Assembly (NCBI GenBank): GCA_964016885.1
Contig: OZ024741.1
Span: 11,036,001-11,100,000, forward strand
Reading direction: 5' to 3'
Source of the DNA: Eledone cirrhosa
Taxonomy: Eukaryota
Length of the DNA stretch: 64,000 nucleotides
In this document: piece after piece, positions 2,047 through 19,400 of the stretch
Numbering within the stretch: position 1 is the stretch's first letter
Layout of the letters: every line of letters begins with the position of its first letter
Made by a program: the position numbers and the translations under genes
The notes under the pieces: generated by a model
The model's input: only the letters and a program-made list of their open reading frames with translations
What the model was told of the DNA's origin: nothing
Database searches by the model: none

Positions 2047-2134
2047 GTGAAAAATTGAACGGGAACAAAACAGAGAGGCAGTACGAACAAAGGTTTATTA
2101 GTTTCACGCTCTTGAGAGTGGGGTGGTGATGGGG

Positions 2135-2168
2135 AACGACGTTTCGGGCATAAGCCCTTCTTCAGGCG
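2135..2168 (-). ncRNA. Minimal hammerhead ribozyme in a pLTR-like fragment (2047-2230)
   Basis: Minus strand reads CTGAAGA-A-GGGC ttat GCCC-GAAA-CG-TC; short stem I. Confidence 0.7.
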
Positions 2169-2439: not shown

Positions 2440-2442
<3 letters not shown>

Positions 2443-5400
2443 CCCTCTGCCGCTCATATCGAATTTCGTTTTTCGTGAACTCGTGCGCCGATTTTTCGAT
2501 ACTCGATCTTTCTAATATATTTAGCTCTGGACATAGCTATCCACCAGTTAATTTTATTGCTCATTTTTTGTCGATTCTATTGAGTGATGAATAGCTTTTG
2601 TTTTATTTTAACATGTCTATTGAGCACTCTAATTCGATATGTGTATTTCCACATTCACTCGAATTGTTTTCGCGGATATAGGGGTCATCTCCCTTGTCTA
2701 ATGCCATGTGCGTTTTTCACCGCTAGTTGACTCCTTTGCCGCCAGGAAAAAACTCGTTGACAACGTAAACTCCGTTCCACTTATTCTAGTAGGCTTTTAT
2801 ATTTATATGTGAGCTGATAGAGTACTGTCTAAGGATTTACAGAAACCCATGAAGCTAGATTTAACACCTTTCTAGTGGGTCCGGGTATGATTTTACATTC
2901 ATTTAAATTATTGACGTATTGTTTTATTGATATTTTTTATCTGTTTGGCCCGAATCTTCCTTTATCGATTTTAAATCGTATGGTTGATTGTAGACTTGTT
3001 CTATATGTGACGGTATTTTAACGATAGTTATAGCTCTGATTCATCTGAATTATTGAGCCCTCTGCCGCTCATATCGAATTTCGTTTTTCGTGAACTCGTG
3101 CGCCGATTTTTCGATACTCGATCTTTCTAATATATTTAGCTCTGGACATAGCTATCCACCAGTTAATTTTATTGCTCATTTTTTGTCGATTCTATTGAGT
3201 GATGAATAGCTTTTGTTTTATTTTAACATGTCTATTGAGCACTCTAATTCGATATGTGTATTTCCACATTCACTCGAATTGTTTTCGCGGATATAGGGGT
3301 CATCTCCCTTGTCTAATGCCATGTGCGTTTTTCACCGCTAGTTGACTCCTTTGCCGCCAGGAAAAAACTCGTTGACAACGTAAACTCCGTTCCACTTATT
3401 CTAGTAGGCTTTTATATTTATATGTGAGCTGATAGAGTACTGTCTAAGGATTTACAGAAACCCATGAAGCTAGATTTAACACCTTTCTAGTGGGTCCGGG
3501 TATGATTTTACATTCATTTAAATTATTGACGTATTGTTTTATTGATATTTTTTATCTGTTTGGCCCGAATCTTCCTTTATCGATTTTAAATCGTATGGTT
3601 GATTGTAGACTTGTTCTATATGTGACGGTATTTTAACGATAGTTATAGCTCTGATTCATCTGAATTATTGAGCCCTCTGCCGCTCATATCGAATTTCGTT
3701 TTTCGTGAACTCGTGCGCCGATTTTTCGATACTCGATCTTTCTAATATATTTAGCTCTGGACATAGCTATCCACCAGTTAATTTTATTGCTCATTTTTTG
3801 TCGATTCTATTGAGTGATGAATAGCTTTTGTTTTATTTTAACATGTCTATTGAGCACTCTAATTCGATATGTGTATTTCCACATTCACTCGAATTGTTTT
3901 CGCGGATATAGGGGTCATCTCCCTTGTCTAATGCCATGTGCGTTTTTCACCGCTAGTTGACTCCTTTGCCGCCAGGAAAAAACTCGTTGACAACGTAAAC
4001 TCCGTTCCACTTATTCTAGTAGGCTTTTATATTTATATGTGAGCTGATAGAGTACTGTCTAAGGATTTACAGAAACCCATGAAGCTAGATTTAACACCTT
4101 TCTAGTGGGTCCGGGTATGATTTTACATTCATTTAAATTATTGACGTATTGTTTTATTGATATTTTTTATCTGTTTGGCCCGAATCTTCCTTTATCGATT
4201 TTAAATCGTATGGTTGATTGTAGACTTGTTCTATATGTGACGGTATTTTAACGATAGTTATAGCTCTGATTCATCTGAATTATTGAGCCCTCTGCCGCTC
4301 ATATCGAATTTCGTTTTTCGTGAACTCGTGCGCCGATTTTTCGATACTCGATCTTTCTAATATATTTAGCTCTGGACATAGCTATCCACCAGTTAATTTT
4401 ATTGCTCATTTTTTGTCGATTCTATTGAGTGATGAATAGCTTTTGTTTTATTTTAACATGTCTATTGAGCACTCTAATTCGATATGTGTATTTCCACATT
4501 CACTCGAATTGTTTTCGCGGATATAGGGGTCATCTCCCTTGTCTAATGCCATGTGCGTTTTTCACCGCTAGTTGACTCCTTTGCCGCCAGGAAAAAACTC
4601 GTTGACAACGTAAACTCCGTTCCACTTATTCTAGTAGGCTTTTATATTTATATGTGAGCTGATAGAGTACTGTCTAAGGATTTACAGAAACCCATGAAGC
4701 TAGATTTAACACCTTTCTAGTGGGTCCGGGTATGATTTTACATTCATTTAAATTATTGACGTATTGTTTTATTGATATTTTTTATCTGTTTGGCCCGAAT
4801 CTTCCTTTATCGATTTTAAATCGTATGGTTGATTGTAGACTTGTTCTATATGTGACGGTATTTTAACGATAGTTATAGCTCTGATTCATCTGAATTATTG
4901 AGCCCTCTGCCGCTCATATCGAATTTCGTTTTTCGTGAACTCGTGCGCCGATTTTTCGATACTCGATCTTTCTAATATATTTAGCTCTGGACATAGCTAT
5001 CCACCAGTTAATTTTATTGCTCATTTTTTGTCGATTCTATTGAGTGATGAATAGCTTTTGTTTTATTTTAACATGTCTATTGAGCACTCTAATTCGATAT
5101 GTGTATTTCCACATTCACTCGAATTGTTTTCGCGGATATAGGGGTCATCTCCCTTGTCTAATGCCATGTGCGTTTTTCACCGCTAGTTGACTCCTTTGCC
5201 GCCAGGAAAAAACTCGTTGACAACGTAAACTCCGTTCCACTTATTCTAGTAGGCTTTTATATTTATATGTGAGCTGATAGAGTACTGTCTAAGGATTTAC
5301 AGAAACCCATGAAGCTAGATTTAACACCTTTCTAGTGGGTCCGGGTATGATTTTACATTCATTTAAATTATTGACGTATTGTTTTATTGATATTTTTTAT

Positions 5401-7440
5401 CTGTTTGGCCCGAATCTTCCTTTATCGATTTTAAATCGTATGGTTGATTGTAGACTTGTTCTATATGTGACGGTATTTTAACGATAGTTATAGCTCTGAT
5501 TCATCTGAATTATTGAGCCCTCTGCCGCTCATATCGAATTTCGTTTTTCGTGAACTCGTGCGCCGATTTTTCGATACTCGATCTTTCTAATATATTTAGC
5601 TCTGGACATAGCTATCCACCAGTTAATTTTATTGCTCATTTTTTGTCGATTCTATTGAGTGATGAATAGCTTTTGTTTTATTTTAACATGTCTATTGAGC
5701 ACTCTAATTCGATATGTGTATTTCCACATTCACTCGAATTGTTTTCGCGGATATAGGGGTCATCTCCCTTGTCTAATGCCATGTGCGTTTTTCACCGCTA
5801 GTTGACTCCTTTGCCGCCAGGAAAAAACTCGTTGACAACGTAAACTCCGTTCCACTTATTCTAGTAGGCTTTTATATTTATATGTGAGCTGATAGAGTAC
5901 TGTCTAAGGATTTACAGAAACCCATGAAGCTAGATTTAACACCTTTCTAGTGGGTCCGGGTATGATTTTACATTCATTTAAATTATTGACGTATTGTTTT
6001 ATTGATATTTTTTATCTGTTTGGCCCGAATCTTCCTTTATCGATTTTAAATCGTATGGTTGATTGTAGACTTGTTCTATATGTGACGGTATTTTAACGAT
6101 AGTTATAGCTCTGATTCATCTGAATTATTGAGCCCTCTGCCGCTCATATCGAATTTCGTTTTTCGTGAACTCGTGCGCCGATTTTTCGATACTCGATCTT
6201 TCTAATATATTTAGCTCTGGACATAGCTATCCACCAGTTAATTTTATTGCTCATTTTTTGTCGATTCTATTGAGTGATGAATAGCTTTTGTTTTATTTTA
6301 ACATGTCTATTGAGCACTCTAATTCGATATGTGTATTTCCACATTCACTCGAATTGTTTTCGCGGATATAGGGGTCATCTCCCTTGTCTAATGCCATGTG
6401 CGTTTTTCACCGCTAGTTGACTCCTTTGCCGCCAGGAAAAAACTCGTTGACAACGTAAACTCCGTTCCACTTATTCTAGTAGGCTTTTATATTTATATGT
6501 GAGCTGATAGAGTACTGTCTAAGGATTTACAGAAACCCATGAAGCTAGATTTAACACCTTTCTAGTGGGTCCGGGTATGATTTTACATTCATTTAAATTA
6601 TTGACGTATTGTTTTATTGATATTTTTTATCTGTTTGGCCCGAATCTTCCTTTATCGATTTTAAATCGTATGGTTGATTGTAGACTTGTTCTATATGTGA
6701 CGGTATTTTAACGATAGTTATAGCTCTGATTCATCTGAATTATTGAGCCCTCTGCCGCTCATATCGAATTTCGTTTTTCGTGAACTCGTGCGCCGATTTT
6801 TCGATACTCGATCTTTCTAATATATTTAGCTCTGGACATAGCTATCCACCAGTTAATTTTATTGCTCATTTTTTGTCGATTCTATTGAGTGATGAATAGC
6901 TTTTGTTTTATTTTAACATGTCTATTGAGCACTCTAATTCGATATGTGTATTTCCACATTCACTCGAATTGTTTTCGCGGATATAGGGGTCATCTCCCTT
7001 GTCTAATGCCATGTGCGTTTTTCACCGCTAGTTGACTCCTTTGCCGCCAGGAAAAAACTCGTTGACAACGTAAACTCCGTTCCACTTATTCTAGTAGGCT
7101 TTTATATTTATATGTGAGCTGATAGAGTACTGTCTAAGGATTTACAGAAACCCATGAAGCTAGATTTAACACCTTTCTAGTGGGTCCGGGTATGATTTTA
7201 CATTCATTTAAATTATTGACGTATTGTTTTATTGATATTTTTTATCTGTTTGGCCCGAATCTTCCTTTATCGATTTTAAATCGTATGGTTGATTGTAGAC
7301 TTGTTCTATATGTGACGGTATTTTAACGATAGTTATAGCTCTGATTCATCTGAATTATTGAGCCCTCTGCCGCTCATATCGAATTTCGTTTTTCGTGAAC
7401 TCGTGCGCCGATTTTTCGATACTCGATCTTTCTAATATAT
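2440..7440 (+). repeat. Tandem array of a 615-bp non-coding unit, 8 full copies plus ~80 bp, flanked by (TA)n
   Basis: GAGCCCTCTGCCGCTC recurs at 2440, 3055, 3670, 4285, 4900, 5515, 6130, 6745, 7360; no differences between copies seen by eye; no ORF in track. Confidence 0.98.
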
Positions 7441-10026: not shown

Positions 10027-10609
10027 CAGTTAATTTTATTGTTCATTTTTTGTCGATTCTATTAAATGATGAATAGCTCCTGTTTATTTTAACATGTCTA
10101 TTGAGCACTCTTATTCGATATGTGTATTTCCACATTTTCCCGAATATTTTTTTGCGGATATAGAGGTTATCTCCCTTGCTGAATTCCATGTGCGTTTTTT
10201 CAACCTGGGTTATGCCTTATCATTCGTTCGGACAAAAGCTCGTTGAGGAAATAAATTCCCGTCCGCTGGCTTCTAGAAGTCTTATATATTTTTATGTGAG
10301 CTGATAGAGGGCAGTTTAAGGATTTACAGAAACCCAAGAAGCTAGATTTACCATCTTTCTAGCGGGTCCGGGTATGCTTTTTACATTCATTTGATTTATT
10401 GATTTATTGATATTTTATCTGAGTGTCCCGAATCTTCCAGATCGCAATTTTTCGGTCGTATGGTTGATTTTAGACATGTTCTATATGTGACGGTATTTTA
10501 ACGATAGTTATAGCTCTGATTTATCTGAATTATTGAGCCCTCTGCCGCTCATTTCGAACTTTGTTTATCGTGAACTCGTGCGCCGATTTTTCGATACTCG
10601 ATTATTCTA
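10027..10609 (+). mobile_element. Diverged, circularly permuted near-monomer of the 615-bp element, flanked by (TA)n
   Basis: Collinear with the array from CAGTTAATTTTATTG across the unit junction to CTCGAT..TTCTA; many substitutions. Confidence 0.93.
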
Positions 10610-10938
10610 CTATATATATATATATATATATATATACCTCTTTCTGCATGCATGGTTGCATATTGATATGTGTGTCGGTAGAGGGGGTGGAAGGGGGAGA
10701 AGAAGATAATGAAGGAGAGAAAGAAAGAGAGAATTTACTGAGATAGATAGACAGAGAGAGACATATAAGTAGACAGATGGACAGACAGAGAGATAAACTG
10801 AGTGACAGATATAAACATACATATATATATGTGTGTGTGTGTACGTGTGTGTGAGTGTATATATATATATATATATAGCGAGAGAGGGAGTGTGTGTGTG
10901 TTAGATACATATAGATAGATAAATAGATAGATAGATAT

Positions 10939-11915
10939 ATTTCTTTATTAGCCACAGGGGCACAAAAGAAGGGGACAAATACAAAGGGGGAAGTTTACAT
11001 ACAATAAAAACGTGTAAAATGTTATCACAGATGGAATTTAAAAGTTAGTCGATTTTCCCCAATAGAGGGAGACAGTTTATATGGGTAACACAGACCCCCG
11101 AAAAAAATGTGCAACCCTCATCTCCAGGAGTACGAAGAGCTTGTACTCCTTTCCTCTCCTCCTCCTTTTCCTCAACCTACAGGCTGATATAAAGAGAAGG
11201 CCCATTCACTCGGGCCATTCTCGCCACTTTCACCCACCTTTCATAAAACTTGCTGGGGTACAGCACCTCTCTCTCCATCCTGATTCTTCTTCCAAAGTGG
11301 TATTTGAAAAAAAGAATCAGTTGTTGGCCGGAGAGAAAGGTGTCTGACCTCAGCCCTTTCAACCTTGTCCACCATACAACCTCTTTCGCCATAGCTATCA
11401 CACAAAGGAAAACCGCCTCTCCTTCGTTTTTGAAGGAGGGTGGCGGTTTGATCATGACAATGGACTCGGTGGTCAACTGGATTGGTCCCACCCGCGACAA
11501 TAGTCGTTCTACATAGCCCCACAGGTCAGTGACGCCCGGGCAGTGTATGAATGCGTGCGCGACGGTTTCTTCGTCTCGCACGCACCTCGGACAGATCTTT
11601 TTTGCAGGGTCCCTGCCCGGGCGCCCATGTCTGTATAGCTTGTCTCGAACTGGTAGAGCTCCTCGGTAGCACTGCCAGGCCAGGGACTTTTGGAAGTTGT
11701 CCATCGGTCCCGGGCGGAAGGTCCTACCGAACAGACTGGCCAGTTCATCTTCCTCCACGCCTAGAGTTTCACCGAGCGCGTCGTCGCACTTGCTGCGGAC
11801 CAACCCTCTATAGAATGACGAAGTGGAGTCTCCACTGATCGCCGGGTCCGCCTGCCAGAGGGCTGTGAGCGCCTGAGCACATTCGATGTGCCAGTCGCCC
11901 ATTTTCCTCGGTCTC
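10939..11915 (-). mobile_element. Tx1-like (L1 group) LINE, 5'-truncated copy A: zf-RVT/CCHC C-terminus and 3' UTR
   Basis: ORF 11177..11902 with WQCYRGALPVRDKL and CPRC..EETVAHAFIHC; both ends abut (GATA)n. Confidence 0.88.
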
Positions 11916-11940
11916 TAGATAGATAGATAGATAGATAGAT

Positions 11941-14212
11941 AATTTTCTTTTTATTTGCCACCAGGGCATCAAAAAGTGGGACAAGTACAATGGGGGGAGT
12001 TTACAAAAGAAGGCGTCCTCAATAAGGAGGAGGCAATAACAAGATATAAAAATAAAATACATAACAAAATAAATTTTATAACAAAATCCTCAATAGGGAG
12101 GAGGCACCTGGGGTCGCACACACCCCCGAAAAAAGTGTGCAACCCTTCTCCTCAGGAGCACAGAGAGGGGGTGCTGCCTTGATCTTTTATCTTCCTCACC
12201 TATAGTCTGATGTAGATTGAAGGCCCATTCACACGAGCCATTCTCGCCACTTTCACCCATCTTTCATAAAAACGGCTGGGGTGCAGCACCTCTCTCTCCA
12301 TCCTGATCCTTCTTCCGAAATGGTATCGGAAGAAACGGACCAGTTGTTGGCCAGAGAGAAAGGTGTCTGACCTCAGTCCTTTCAGACGCGCCACCATACA
12401 ACCTCTTTCGCCATGGCTATTACGCACAGAAACACCGCCTCTCCTTCGTTTTTGAAGAGGGGAGGCGGCTTGATCGTTACAATAGACTCGGTGGTCAACC
12501 GGATCGGTCCCACCCTTGACAGCAGTTGTTCGACATAGCCCCACAGATCGGCAATGCCCGAGCAGTGTACCAATGCGTGTGCAACGGTTTCCTCGTCGCA
12601 CACGCATCTGGGACAGATCTTTTTCGAGGGGTCCCTACCCGGGCGCCCGTGTCTGTAGAGCCTTTCTCGAACGGGCAGAGCCCTTCTGTAGCACTGCCAG
12701 GCCAGGGACCTCTGGAAGTTATCCATGGGTCCCGGGATGAATGTCCTACCGAACAGGTTGGCCAGTTCGTCTTCCTCCATGTCTAGGGCTTCTCCGAGGG
12801 CGTCGTCGCACCTGCTAACCACCAGCCCTCTATAGAATGACGAGGTGGATTCTCCACTGACAGCCGGGTCCGCCTGCCAGAGAGCCGTGAGCGCCTGGGC
12901 ACACTCGGTGTGCCAGGCGCCCAGTTTTCTCGGTCTTTGCTTGACCCAGGATTATAGCTCGGTGAGTGAGACGAGTGTGGGAAAGGCTCGCCTCACAAAC
13001 GCGGCCCACACCGATTGACCGGAGAGGAATACCTGGAGGTGCCGTAGCCTTAATGCGTGTTTACGTATCATTAACCACGGCATTCCAGCCCTCCTTTCGA
13101 AGGGTGTTGACAGCAGATGGATCTCCTCACCAAAGGAGCCCGCTTCTTCCAAAGGAATTGGAAGAGTGTGCGCTCCATTTTGGCGAGCGTTTCCCTTGCA
13201 ACAACTCCAACTTCCGCAGCAGTGGCTCTAGAATCATTACATATAGAAGGGAGGAGAGAGGGCACTCTTGTCGGATGGACCGGGCGATTTCGAACGGCTC
13301 CGAGAGGTAGCCGTTCACCTTGACCCTAGAGCAGATGCGGCTGCTGTGCATGGCATTGATCCAGCCCCTGAAAACGGGTCCGAAGCCTGCCGCCGCTAGC
13401 ACCGCATCCAGGTAACCATGGTCGACCCTATCGAACGCCTTAGATTGATCCAAATTGATCAGGGCCCCACCAAAGCCGGGTTCGTTCCCAACCCTCTCTA
13501 TGATGTATCGCATGAGGTGGAGGTTGTCGTGGATGGACCTGGACGGGATAGCACATGTCTGCGCATCTCCCACCAGGTTGCCCACGACAAGCGCCAACCT
13601 CTTTGCTAGCACCTTGGCCAAAATCTGTAACTCTGTATTTAGCAGAGTTATGGGCCTGAAATTATTTATATCGTCCCCCTTGTTCTCGTCCTTCCTCACT
13701 AGCGTGACTACGCCCTTGGTCACAGCACAGGGAATTCTCCCGTTCTGTTGCCAGTTGCAGTAGACCGCCTCGAGGAGATCGGGGAACAAGTCCGGCATAG
13801 CTAGATATAGTTCGTATGGAAGACCATCGAGACCCGGGGATTTGCGTTTGCCGCATTGGCTCAGCACGTCCTCTATCTCAGCGGCTGAAATCGGCTCCTC
13901 GCAGGACTTCGCCTCCCTGTCCGAGAGACGCGGCAGGCCGTCGAGGTATGGACCGAAGTCCACTTCCCCAACCGGCTCCTCGCCCCTTCTGAACAATCTG
14001 GCAAAGTGCTTTTGAAAAGCCTTGCACATCTGCTTAGGTTCAAGGATCACCCGTTCATCCTGGTCTCGCAAAGATCGGATAGTGGATCTACTCCCTCTTT
14101 TGGCTTCTGTCACGCGGGCCCAGCTAACAGCTTTCGTCCCCTCGTTTCCCAGAGCACGTATTTTGCTTCGGACGATGCAGCCTTCGTGTTTCGCGTCGAA
14201 GAACTGGCCCAG
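11941..14212 (-). mobile_element. Tx1-like LINE, 5'-truncated copy B with internally deleted, frameshifted RT
   Basis: RT motifs KSPGLDGLP, FRPITLLN, LDQSKAFDRV, RQECPLS in 13127..14113; YADD region missing; CCHC region 12382..12822; (GATA)n on both sides. Confidence 0.92.
13127..14113 (-). pseudogene. LINE ORF2 reverse transcriptase fragment
   Basis: Non-LTR RT motifs present up to QxCPLS, then a jump to the FQFLW...GGL region. Confidence 0.9.
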
Positions 14213-14264
14213 GATAGATAGATAGATCGTTACATATATATATATCTATATATATATGTGTGTG

Positions 14265-15735: not shown

Positions 15736-16417
15736 ACATACATACATCTAATCGATACATGTTCCAAATCTCTCCTCGCTAAATTCAAATCTAACCGAAG
15801 TTAACTTTACCTTTCGTCTTTTCTGGGATCAACAAAATAAAATACCAGTCCAATGAAGGGGTGAGGGGTTTCGAAATTGTTTGAAAGTCAGACAAGATAC
15901 TTTGTGGTATTTGTTCTGACACTGTATTCTAAGTTTGAATTTCTCTGTCACCAACTTGGATGATTTGATCCCACACTTTGTGTTCTAAGTTCAAATTAAG
16001 CTATGACGTACTTGTGTGGTAAATTTAAGCCCTTGTGTAGTTTAAAACCACCATCTGATCCTTGTACGCCTTATATGTCACTCTGATGTAAGGATTCCTC
16101 GCAAGGTTTCATTTTGCAGGTACCTCTCTTCTTCTCTTCATTCCATCAGTTACTCTATCTTTTTTTCCTTTTTCTCTGTCATTTTGTGATGTGTGTGCTG
16201 TATGCGCACGAGCGTATATGTGTGCCAGACACCCGGACACACCAACACACACACACCAACACACACACACATACACACACACGCACACACTCACACGCCA
16301 GAGAATTACAAGCTGAGAAAACTAGAACAAAATCAAAATGAAGAGGCGACACAGAAGACGCAAATAGTTATTGAAAAGATTAGAGACTGATAAGGACCGA
16401 AACCCTTTCTTCAGTGG

Positions 16418-19400
16418 GGTTTCGTCTCTCAAGACCTTCTGTTGTCCAGCTCTCCTGAGAGTTTCGTCTCTGAAGACCTTCTACTGTCCAACTCTCCTGA
16501 GAGTTTCTTCTCTGAAGACCTTCTGCTGTCCAGCTCTCCTGAGAGTTTCGTCTCTGAAGACCTACTGCTGTCCAGCTCTCCTGAGAGTTTCGTCTCTCAA
16601 GACCTTCTACTGTCCAACTCTCCTGAGAGTTTCTTCTCTGAAGACCTTCTGCTGTCCAGCTCTCCTCAGAGTTTCGTCTCTGAAGACCTTCTGCTGTCCA
16701 GCTCTCCTGAGAGTTTCGTCTCTGAAGACCTTCTGTTGTCCATCTCTCCTGAGAGTTTCGTCTCACGAGACCTTCTGCTGTCCAGCTCTCCTGAGAGTTT
16801 CGTCTCTCAAGACCTTCTACTGTCCAGCTCTCCTGAGAGTTTCTTCTCTGAAGACCTTCTGCTGTCCAGCTCTCCTCAGAGTTTCTTCTCTGAAGACCTT
16901 CTGCTGTCCGGCTCTCCTGAGAGTTTCGTCTCTGAAGACCTTCTACTGTCCAGCTCTCCTCAGAGTTTCGTCTCTGAAGACCTTCTGCTGTCCAGCTCTC
17001 CTGAGAGTTTCGTCTCTGAAGACCTTCTGCTGTCCAGCTCTCCTGAGAGTTTCTTCTCTGAAGACCCACTGCTGTCCAGCTCTCCTGAGAGTTTCGTCTC
17101 TGAAGACCTACTGCTGTCCAGCTCTCCTGAGAGTTTCGTCTATCAAGACCTTCTGCTGTCCAGCTCTCCTGAGAGTTTCGTCTCTCAAGACCTTCTGCTG
17201 TCCAGCTCTCCTGAGAGTTTCGTCTCTCAAGACCTTCTACTGTCCAGCTCTCCTGAGAGTTTCTTCTCTGAAGACCTTCTGCTGTCCAGCTCTCCTCAGA
17301 GTTTCGTCTCTGAAGACCTTCTGCTGTCCAGCTCTCCTCAGAGTTTCGTCTCTGAAGACCTTCTGCTGTCCAGCTCTCCTGAGAGTTTCGTCTCTGAAGA
17401 CCTTCTACTGTCCAGCTCTCCTGAGAGTTTCGTCTCTCAAGACCTTCTGCTGTCCAGCTCTCCTGAGAGTTTCGTCTCTCAAGACCTTCTACTGTCCAGC
17501 TTTCCTGAGAGTTTCTTCTCTGAAGACCTTCTGCTGTCCAGCTCTCCTCAGAGTTTCGTCTCTGAAGACCTTCTGCTGTCCAGCTCTCCTGAGAGTTTCG
17601 TCTCTGAAGACCTTCTGCTGTCCAGCTCTCCTGAGAGTTTCGTCTCTGAAGACCTTCTACTGTCCAGCTCTCCTGAGAGTTTCTTCTCTGAAGACCTTCT
17701 GCTGTCCAGCTCTCCTCAGAGTTTCTTCTCTGAAGACCTTCTGCTGTCCAGCTCTCCTGAGAGTTTCGTCTCTGAAGACCTTCTACTGTCCAGCTCTCCT
17801 GAGAGTTTCGTCTCTGAAGACCTTCTACTGTCCAGCTCTCCTGAGAGTTTCGTCTCTGAAGACCTTCTGCTGTCCAGCTCTCCTGAGAGTTTCGTCTCTG
17901 AAGACCTTCTACTGTCCAGCTCTCCTGAGAGTTTCGTCTCTGAAGACCTTCTGCTGTCCAGCTCTCCTGAGAGTTTCGTCTCTGAAGACCTTCTGCTGTC
18001 CAGCTCTCCTGAGAGTTTCGTCTCTGAAGACCTTCTGCTGTCCAGCTCTCCTGAGAGTCTCGTCTCTGAAGACCCACTGCTGTCGAGCTCTCCTGAGAGT
18101 TTCGTCTCTGAAGACCTTCTGCTGTCCAGCTCTCCTGAGAGTTTCGTCTCTCAAGACCTTCTACTGTCCAGCTCTCCTGAGAGTCTCGTCTCTGAAGACC
18201 CACTGCTGTCCAGCTCTCCTGAGAGTTTCGTCTCTGAAGACCTACTGCTGTCCAGCTCTCCTGAGAGTTTCGTCTCTCAAGACCTTCTGCTGTCCAGCTC
18301 TCCGGAGAGTTTCGTCTCTCAGGACCTTCTGCTGTCCAGCTCCCCTGAGAGTTTCGTCTCTCAAGACCTTCTACTGTCCAGCTCTCCTGAGAGTTTCTTC
18401 TCTGAAGACCTTCTACTGTCCAGCTCTCCTCAGAGTTTCGTCTCTCAAGACCTTCTGCTGTCCAGCTCTCCGGAGAGTTTCGTCTCTCAGGACCTTCTGC
18501 TGTCCAGCTCCCCTGAGAGTTTCGTCTCTCAAGACCTTCTACTGTCCAGCTCTCCTGAGAGTTTCTTCTCTGAAGACCTTCTACTGTCCAGCTCTCCTCA
18601 GAGTTTCGTCTCTCAAGACCTTCTGCTGTCCAGCTCTCCTGAGAGTTTCGTCTCTGAAGACCTTCTGCTGTCCAGCTCTCCTGAGAGTTTCGTCTCTGAA
18701 GACCTTCTACTGTCCAGCTCTCCTGAGAGTTTCGTCTCTCAAGACCTTCTGCTGTCCAGCTCTCCTGAGAGTTTCGTCTCTCAAGACCTACTGTCCAGCT
18801 TTCCTGAGAGTTTCTTCTCTGAAGACCTTCTGCTGTCCAGCTCTCCTCAGAGTTTCGTCTCTGAAGACCTTCTGCTGTCCAGCTCTCCTCAGAGTTTCGT
18901 CTCTGAAGACCTTCTGCTGTCCAGCTCTCCTGAGAGTTTCGTCTCTGAAGACCTTCTACTGTCCAGCTCTCCTGAGAGTTTCTTCTCTGAAGACCTTCTG
19001 CTGTCCAGCTCTCCTCAGAGTTTCTTCTCTGAAGACCTTCTGCTGTCCAGCTCTCCTGAGAGTTTCGTCTCTGAAGACCTTCTACTGTCCAGCTCTCCTG
19101 AGAGTTTCGTCTCTGAAGACCTTCTACTGTCCAGCTCTCCTCAGAGTTTCGTCTCTCAAGACCTTCTGCTGTCCAGCTCTCCTCAGAGTTTCGTCTCTCA
19201 AGACCTTCTGCTGTCCAGCTCTCCTGAGAGTTTCGTCTCTGAAGACCTTCTACTGTCCAGCTCTCCTGAGAGTTTCTTCTCTGAAGACCTTCTGCTGTCC
19301 AGCTCTCCTGAGAGTTTCGTCTCTGAAGACCTTCTGCTGTCCAGCTCTCCTGAGAGTTTCGTCTCTGAAGACCTTCTGCTGTCCAGCTCTCCTGAGAGTT

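What the first reader, a model, noticed from the sequence alone, without database searches (positions are those of the whole stretch)
2807..2898. Conserved ribozyme-like module in the 615-bp unit that fits no canonical class
Seen: this block is well conserved between array and monomer while the ~90 bp just upstream are not. It reads ATGTGAG-CTGATAGA...GAAACCC-AWGAA-GCTAGA(loop)TCTAGY-GGGTC-CGGGTATG..TTTACAT. GAAACCC/GGGTC is a perfect hammerhead stem III with a GUC site and CTGATAGA is CUGANGA plus one base, but stems I and II are not canonical. The AGAA/NGUC and AGAAAC/GUAU..UUAC elements also echo hairpin-ribozyme loops A and B, in a non-standard topology. Inference: candidate variant or new self-cleaving motif that would release monomers.
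Basis: inference. Interest (0 to 1): 0.7.

Follow-up and report, generated by a model that had tools for sequence, protein, structure and literature searches.

The report
Retrozyme with a wobble-core hammerhead

Summary
The block is there, but it was misread. It is the 3' half of a type I hammerhead. The real 5' half lies upstream: stem I at 2752-2756 and core U3-U4-G5-A6-N7-R8-A9 at 2757-2763. CUGAUAGA is a decoy inside a long hairpin that caps stem II. In 168 distinct units, position 7 takes all four bases, position 8 only A or G, and the other core bases are near-invariant. A generic hammerhead descriptor hits all 8 array units and 0 of 3,000 shuffles. The block is no more conserved than the rest of the unit. 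The hairpin-ribozyme helices cannot form. The unit is a non-coding, (TA)n-targeted, 5'-truncated tandem element with about 2,800 copies, like animal non-LTR retrozymes. U3-A8 (this array) is a published variant. Less usual are a U3·G8 wobble in 1,048 copies, a roughly 59-nt cap on stem II and a likely pseudoknot. Cutting and RNA circles are untested, and stem I is weak in folding models. The scan noted U3-A8 and U3-G8 retrozymes on other DNA before.

The parts
2440..7439 (+). Tandem array: 8 identical 615-bp units plus about 80 bases, inserted in a (TA)n run; fixed 3' end at about 7439
2745..2748 (+). Predicted pseudoknot strand (GGAN) upstream of stem I
   Evidence: GGAC:GUCC in 11 of 14 clusters, GGAA:UUCC in 2 and in this array, GGAU:UUCC in 1; competes with an upstream hairpin in folding models
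2752..2756 (+). Stem I, 5' strand (RCYCG), pairs with 2882-2886
   Evidence: predicted by unconstrained RNAalifold; 98.9% of cells paired, one-sided changes only
2757..2763 (+). Hammerhead core U3 U4 G5 A6 N7 R8 A9 (U3-A8 in this array)
   Evidence: tallies over 168 units; genome counts
2764..2773 (+). Unpaired base after A9 (2764) and stem II 5' strand (5 bp, bulge, 3 bp), pairs with 2833-2840
   Evidence: pairing probability 0.90-0.97
2775..2778 (+). Predicted pseudoknot partner strand
2779..2828 (+). Long hairpin capping stem II; contains the decoy CUGAUAGA (2814-2821)
   Evidence: native halves fold better than swapped halves in 77 of 86 cluster pairs; 0 of 20,000 permutations as good
2833..2845 (+). 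Stem II 3' strand, unpaired A (2841), and G12 A13 A14 A15.1 (2842-2845)
   Evidence: GAAA in 166 of 168 units
2846..2880 (+). Stem III (CCC:GGG, A15.1-U16.1), extended by a 5-nt bulge and a 6-bp hairpin
2881..2886 (+). C17 (predicted cut after 2881) and stem I 3' strand (2882-2886)
   Evidence: UC in 165 of 168 units; site inferred from hammerhead numbering
10027..10618 (+). 5'-truncated monomer of a U3·G8 subfamily, in (TA)n, with the same 3' end; carries a change at the first G of stem II

Best explanation
The block is the 3' half of a predicted type I hammerhead ribozyme spanning about 2745-2886, present in every unit of a non-coding repeat that is likely a non-LTR retrozyme mobilised by a Penelope-like element. 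Shown by sequence: the core and stems, about 2,800 copies, head-to-tail arrays, one fixed 3' end in (TA)n and scattered 5' ends. Inferred: read-through transcripts fold the hammerhead and are cut after C2881 into 615-nt monomers. A host ligase of the RtcB type would circularise them. A Penelope-like RT/GIY-YIG protein would nick (TA)n, start at a fixed internal site about 250 nt downstream of the cut, and copy round the template to give truncated monomers or long identical arrays. The U3·G8 form is probably a slow cutter, helped by a stem I-stem II pseudoknot.
For: Core pattern in 168 distinct units: U3 168, U4 166, G5 167, A6 167, A9 167, GAAA 166, UC 165; N7 is G99/C29/U25/A15; position 8 is G115/A53 and never a pyrimidine. 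Genome-wide, 0 copies have a pyrimidine at 8, 4 family copies lack U3, and 1,048 have U3·G8. All 11 core positions are invariant across 14 clusters, while 31 of 56 positions in 2735-2790 vary. The descriptor hits 8 of 8 array units and 0 of 3,000 shuffles, and also finds canonical C3-G8 hammerheads in the fetched GIY-YIG loci; one has the same A·A mismatch at the base of stem II. Unconstrained RNAalifold predicts stems I and III. 95.7% of cells pair, against 30-46% when partners are slid. The constrained fold lies 0.7 kcal/mol above the MFE for 2740-2895 and 1.9 above it in the whole-monomer context, pseudoknot energy not counted. Insertion footprint: 54 of 61 3' ends at one base, 59 of 61 followed by TA runs, 60 scattered 5' ends. 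Changes are fixed array-wide, for example in 25 of 25 units. The genome holds long RT + GIY-YIG ORFs. U3-A8 cores are known, including in Penelope-like elements (PMC4209133, PMC3088659).
Against: There are no cleavage or RNA data. Stem I is only 5 bp with 1-2 G·U pairs. Its predicted pairing probability is 0.16 in the short region and 0-0.12 once 40 more upstream bases are included. Stems I-III show no two-sided compensatory change, and the shuffle control for such pairs is unremarkable (118 of 500). In a type III hammerhead library, single and double mutants of the CUGA/G8 region had low activity apart from the G:C swap (PMC9901934), so U3·G8 may cut poorly. Rfam finds nothing. My descriptor's stem II length limit was set after I saw the motif. 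No autonomous partner sharing sequence was found. Array-wide fixed changes could also come from local DNA amplification.
Confidence: 0.8

Rival explanations
1. The hammerhead fold is real but nearly inactive as a cutter. The element spreads from uncut multimeric transcripts, and arrays regrow by DNA-level amplification.
For: U3·G8 in 1,048 copies; weak stem I in folding models; low activity of core mutants in PMC9901934. None of 60 5' ends lies at the cut site, which fits uncut multimers as well as circles.
Against: Core positions stay invariant across clusters up to about 20% diverged while N7 drifts. Position 8 alternates only between the two partners of U3.
Confidence: 0.14
2. One reading: CUGAUAGA is the core, with an inserted base and non-canonical stems I and II.
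For: G2813 can pair with C2882; CUGAUAG is invariant across clusters; a relaxed arrangement of this kind occurs in only 15-136 of 3,000 shuffles.
Against: There is no stem II; the 'A9' changes in 13 of 168 units; most of the motif is paired in a covarying hairpin; a complete regular alternative uses the same GAAA and GUC.
Confidence: 0.03
3. A rearranged hairpin ribozyme, or a new class, cutting 5' of the G in GUC, perhaps by docking between two units.
For: The four hairpin-like strands occur in order in 0 of 3,000 shuffles (pattern written after seeing the sequence). The variable bases at 2850 and 2888 match hairpin positions 7 and 39; position 7 tolerates any base (PMC8216279), and tolerance at 39 is recalled.
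Against: Only 3 nt separate the loop B and loop A strands on each side, so helices 1 and 4 have no room. Helix 3 cannot pair next to loop B, and loop A has an extra G. AGAAAC and GUC are already explained as hammerhead parts.
Confidence: 0.03

Closest known systems
Metazoan non-LTR retrozymes (Cervera and de la Peña 2020, PMC7229834, parts 2-4 of 6 read; Li, Clavereau and Pollet 2026, 10.64898/2026.07.22.740005, parts 1-2 of 5 read)
   Same: Non-coding, low-GC tandem units with one type I hammerhead each, found as monomers to long multimers beside Penelope-like elements. The 615-bp length is inside the 51-972 bp range given by Li et al.
   Different: U3 core with A8 or G8, a long stem III, about 9 bp of stem II capped by about 59 nt, and a likely pseudoknot in place of the canonical loop 1-loop 2 contact. 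RNA not examined here.
Penelope-like-element hammerheads, including the U3-A8 variant of Schistosoma Cercyon elements (PMC4209133, parts 1-2 of 4 read)
   Same: U3-A8 covariation, 5-bp helix I, long helix II, extra base after A9, G-C first pair of stem II.
   Different: Those are mostly minimal motifs that need dimers; this one has a full stem III. U3·G8 is not mentioned in the parts read.
Pseudoknotted and core-variant hammerheads (Perreault et al. 2011, PMC3088659, passages and section 8 read)
   Same: A stem I-stem II pseudoknot is common (about 40% of non-repetitive examples); natural U3-A8 cores occur.
   Different: Here the pseudoknot strand sits beside a large hairpin insert on stem II, and the wobble core is amplified to about 1,000 copies.
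Hairpin ribozyme (Weinberg et al. 2021, PMC8216279, passages and section 12 part 1 read)
   Same: Short sequence echoes of loops A and B.
   Different: Helices 1, 3 and 4 are absent.
Non-circularly permuted type-SGC hammerheads (Eckert et al. 2023, PMC10085705, part 3 of 8 read)
   Same: Hammerhead blocks that standard searches miss.
   Different: The order here is the ordinary C-G-S (type I).

Membership tests
Type I hammerhead ribozyme | Three stems around the core in order C-G-S, stem I open | tested here: met
Type I hammerhead ribozyme | Core U4 G5 A6 N7, A9, G12 A13 A14, A15.1-U16.1, H17 | tested here: met
   165-167 of 168 units at each fixed position; N7 free
Type I hammerhead ribozyme | Watson-Crick pair between positions 3 and 8 | tested here: inconclusive
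   met as U3-A8 in this array and in 53 of 168 units; only a U·G wobble in 115 of 168 and 1,048 genomic copies
Type I hammerhead ribozyme | [quoted passage not shown] | tested here: inconclusive
   4-bp pseudoknot with one compensatory event, later a U·U mismatch in one cluster; competing upstream hairpin
Type I hammerhead ribozyme | Site-specific self-cleavage after N17 | not testable with these tools
   needs an in vitro assay
Non-LTR retrozyme | Non-coding tandem units, each with a type I hammerhead, dispersed in many loci | tested here: met
   stops in all six frames of the unit
Non-LTR retrozyme | Expressed as linear and circular monomers | not testable with these tools
   needs tissue RNA
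Non-LTR retrozyme | Mobilised by a Penelope-like element | tested here: inconclusive
   footprint fits (PMC11167929 internal initiation; 10.1101/2021.04.23.441226 (TA)n bias); such ORFs exist, but no partner sharing sequence among 50 loci
Hairpin ribozyme | Helices 1-4 flanking loops A and B | tested here: not met
   only helix 2 forms; 3 nt between the loop strands
Hairpin ribozyme | G+1, G8, A22-A24, C25, A38 present | tested here: inconclusive
   bases can be assigned, but only with an extra G in loop A and 3-4 extra bases in loop B (PMC8216279)

The most novel reading that the evidence does not exclude
A natural hammerhead that works in vivo with a U3·G8 wobble, normally taken as crippling, because a pseudoknot and a large stem II domain rescue it. 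Position 8 would act as a switch between a slow (G) and a faster (A) cutter, flipped several times in one family, with the A form underlying most of the young perfect arrays seen. Standard C3-G8, short-stem descriptors would miss such retrozymes in animal genomes.
Probability: 0.3. Interest if true: 0.6.

Novelty: new variant of a known kind. Interest (0 to 1): 0.4.

Why it matters
It supplies a natural series of cores (U3·G8 and U3-A8 in one background, thousands of copies) for testing how much the 3:8 pair matters and whether peripheral structure compensates. It also shows a retrozyme family that Rfam misses, and that descriptors requiring C3-G8 and a short stem II would miss. It is not a new ribozyme class.

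Tried and rejected
Rfam at the gathering threshold on the window, and by E-value on 2700-2950 and four loci: no ribozyme hit. A short-stem II relative: only one internally deleted array unit. Viral contigs: 2 hits, no relative; L184 overlaps a phage gene end. Metagenomes: 6 hits, all lacking stems I and III. Autonomous partner: 50 GIY-YIG loci share only a 22-nt match (E 0.04) judged chance, and none of the downstream sequences I could see resembled the motif. Sequencing runs: no RNA holder listed. Four small-share runs gave short, low-depth or AT-rich pieces, none covering the ribozyme. A read-level variation profile over all genomic copies was not obtained. An HDV-like reading of the upstream crossing helices, and stem I formed with 2898-2904, were considered by eye and dropped. 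The first parse misassigned the 3' strands in many rows and was replaced; only its cap folds and window energies are used. Alignment A1 holds 16 of 20 cluster representatives plus 2 window copies and is one column out of register for the array-type rows, which lowers its pseudoknot and cap counts. Przybilski and Hammann 2007 (3:8 pair exchanges) was not held; I saw its title only. Searches for a natural U3·G8 core found none; subscription papers and figure-only supplements (Perreault Figs S6-S7, no text hits) could hold one.

Full report
Observation. The block at 2807-2898 is as described. It recurs in 8 identical 615-bp units and in an 83%-identical monomer. The genome is 3.0 Gb, and a module pattern matches 2,789 places against 0 for the reversed control. 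Rfam has no match. I collected 170 distinct units in 20 clusters, 14 of them with two or more members. Across 13 full-length clusters, 24 of 92 block positions vary, against 52 of 90 just upstream (p=2e-5) and 113 of 433 in the rest of the unit (p=1.0). The reported contrast is real, but it reflects a variable upstream region, not a specially conserved module.

What it is. The alignment shows that the upstream region holds the missing half of a hammerhead. Stem I is 2752-2756 paired with 2882-2886. The core U3 U4 G5 A6 N7 R8 A9 is at 2757-2763. After one unpaired base, stem II is 2765-2773 paired with 2833-2840. In 168 of the 170 units (2 could not be parsed) U3 is present in 168, U4 in 166, G5, A6 and A9 in 167, GAAA in 166 and UC in 165. 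Position 7 takes all four bases, and position 8 is G in 115 and A in 53. All 11 core positions are invariant over 14 clusters, while 31 of 56 positions in 2735-2790 vary. A descriptor allowing C3 or U3 and a long stem II hits all 8 array units and 0 of 3,000 shuffles. It misses the window's monomer, which has a change at the first G of stem II, and its length limit was chosen after I saw the motif. Unconstrained RNAalifold gives stems I and III but not stem II, where the alignment is out of register. For the named structure, 95.7% of cells pair against 30-46% for slid partners. Changes in stems I-III are one-sided only (G·U to A-U, U·G to C-G), and the count of two-sided pairs is not above shuffles (118 of 500).

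The decoy. CUGAUAGA lies in a long hairpin capping stem II, predicted in all 20 clusters. Native halves of this hairpin fold better than swapped halves in 77 of 86 cluster pairs, and 0 of 20,000 permutations do as well; a control pairing showed no such advantage. Its last A is changed in 13 of 168 units. A 4-bp pseudoknot between 2745-2748 and 2775-2778 is suggested by one C-G to A-U change, with a later mismatch in one cluster. It competes with an upstream hairpin, so I give it about 60%. The hairpin-ribozyme echoes are rarer than chance by a pattern written after seeing them (0 of 3,000), but helices 1, 3 and 4 cannot form, and two of the four strands are hammerhead parts. The conserved bulge in stem III and the conserved tail after stem I remain unexplained.

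The 3:8 pair. This array has U3-A8, a variant reported in Schistosoma Penelope-like elements (PMC4209133) and elsewhere, with activity shown earlier in vitro (PMC3088659). Genome-wide, 1,048 copies have U3·G8, none has a pyrimidine at 8, and 4 family copies lack U3. About 1,700 U3-A8 copies follow by subtraction; they were not counted directly. On an unrooted tree of 14 clusters A8 sits on three separate branches, and one array has G8 in 25 of 25 units on the A8 background. Transitions are commoner than transversions, so this is suggestive, not proof of selection. Against efficient cutting: core mutants other than the G:C swap had low activity in one library (PMC9901934, passages). Stem I has a predicted pairing probability of 0.16 in 2740-2895 and 0-0.12 with more upstream sequence. 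The hammerhead fold lies 0.7-4.7 kcal/mol above the MFE for this array, depending on context, and 1.9 above it in the whole monomer.

How it moves. In 62 loci examined, 54 of 61 measurable 3' ends fall on one base, 59 of 61 run into TA repeats, and 60 5' ends are scattered round the unit, none at the cut site. One other array does begin exactly at the cut site, which is within chance. Many insertions run through the cut site, so the template was a ligated circle or an uncut multimer. Arrays carry changes fixed in every unit, as expected from rolling round one template or from local amplification. A fixed internal start matches Penelope-like reverse transcription (PMC11167929, abstract and main text part 1), and (TA)n bias is known for Naiad and Neptune elements (10.1101/2021.04.23.441226, passages). 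The genome has long RT and GIY-YIG ORFs, but no partner was identified. Cleavage, ligation by RtcB (shown in vitro for other retrozymes, PMC7229834), circles and the partner are all inferred.

Verdict. It is likely a type I hammerhead in a non-LTR retrozyme (0.8), and not a new class. The element type, the U3-A8 core and pseudoknots are known. I found no report of a natural amplified U3·G8 core in five searches, though the most relevant paper was not held. The combination with a roughly 59-nt stem II cap makes it a new variant. Earlier scan notes describe U3-A8 retrozymes in this and another genome and a U3-G8 family in another genome. I saw them after reaching this reading, and they are not independent support. 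PMC6155905 and PMC3884650 were seen as passages only and used for background. Interest 0.4.

Noticed in passing
window about 2130-2165, minus strand: Minimal Penelope-type hammerhead (C3-G8 core, short stem II) in a fragment flanked by (TA)n.
   Followed up: no
window 16378-37774: A 42-bp satellite of about 509 copies. Its minus strand has a hairpin followed by GAAAC, and its start (about 16378-16425) resembles a degenerate hammerhead; it may derive from one.
   Followed up: partly
window 11177-14245, minus strand: Broken LINE fragments with an RT domain (Pfam RVT_1), interrupted at (TAGA)n runs.
   Followed up: partly
window about 1700-1960: An inverted repeat of about 100 bp next to a (TA)n run.
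   Followed up: no
rows X1-X11: Eleven runs from 7 studies and 8 organism labels hold half or more of the unit's words.
   Followed up: no
L137:4309-7122, L139:1275-4562: [quoted passage not shown] My descriptor found no canonical hammerhead close to their ends, whereas the L140/L149 family has a minimal one about 380 bases after the stop.
   Followed up: partly
L239/L240 (G000:C1:81.70-81.75 Mb): A long, older array whose units are heterogeneous, with sub-variants interleaved. One variant cluster breaks stems I and III, showing DNA-level turnover after insertion.
   Followed up: partly
window 2950-2953: A conserved CCCG downstream can pair with the stem I 3' strand in the predicted circular fold, a possible block to re-cutting.
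   Followed up: partly
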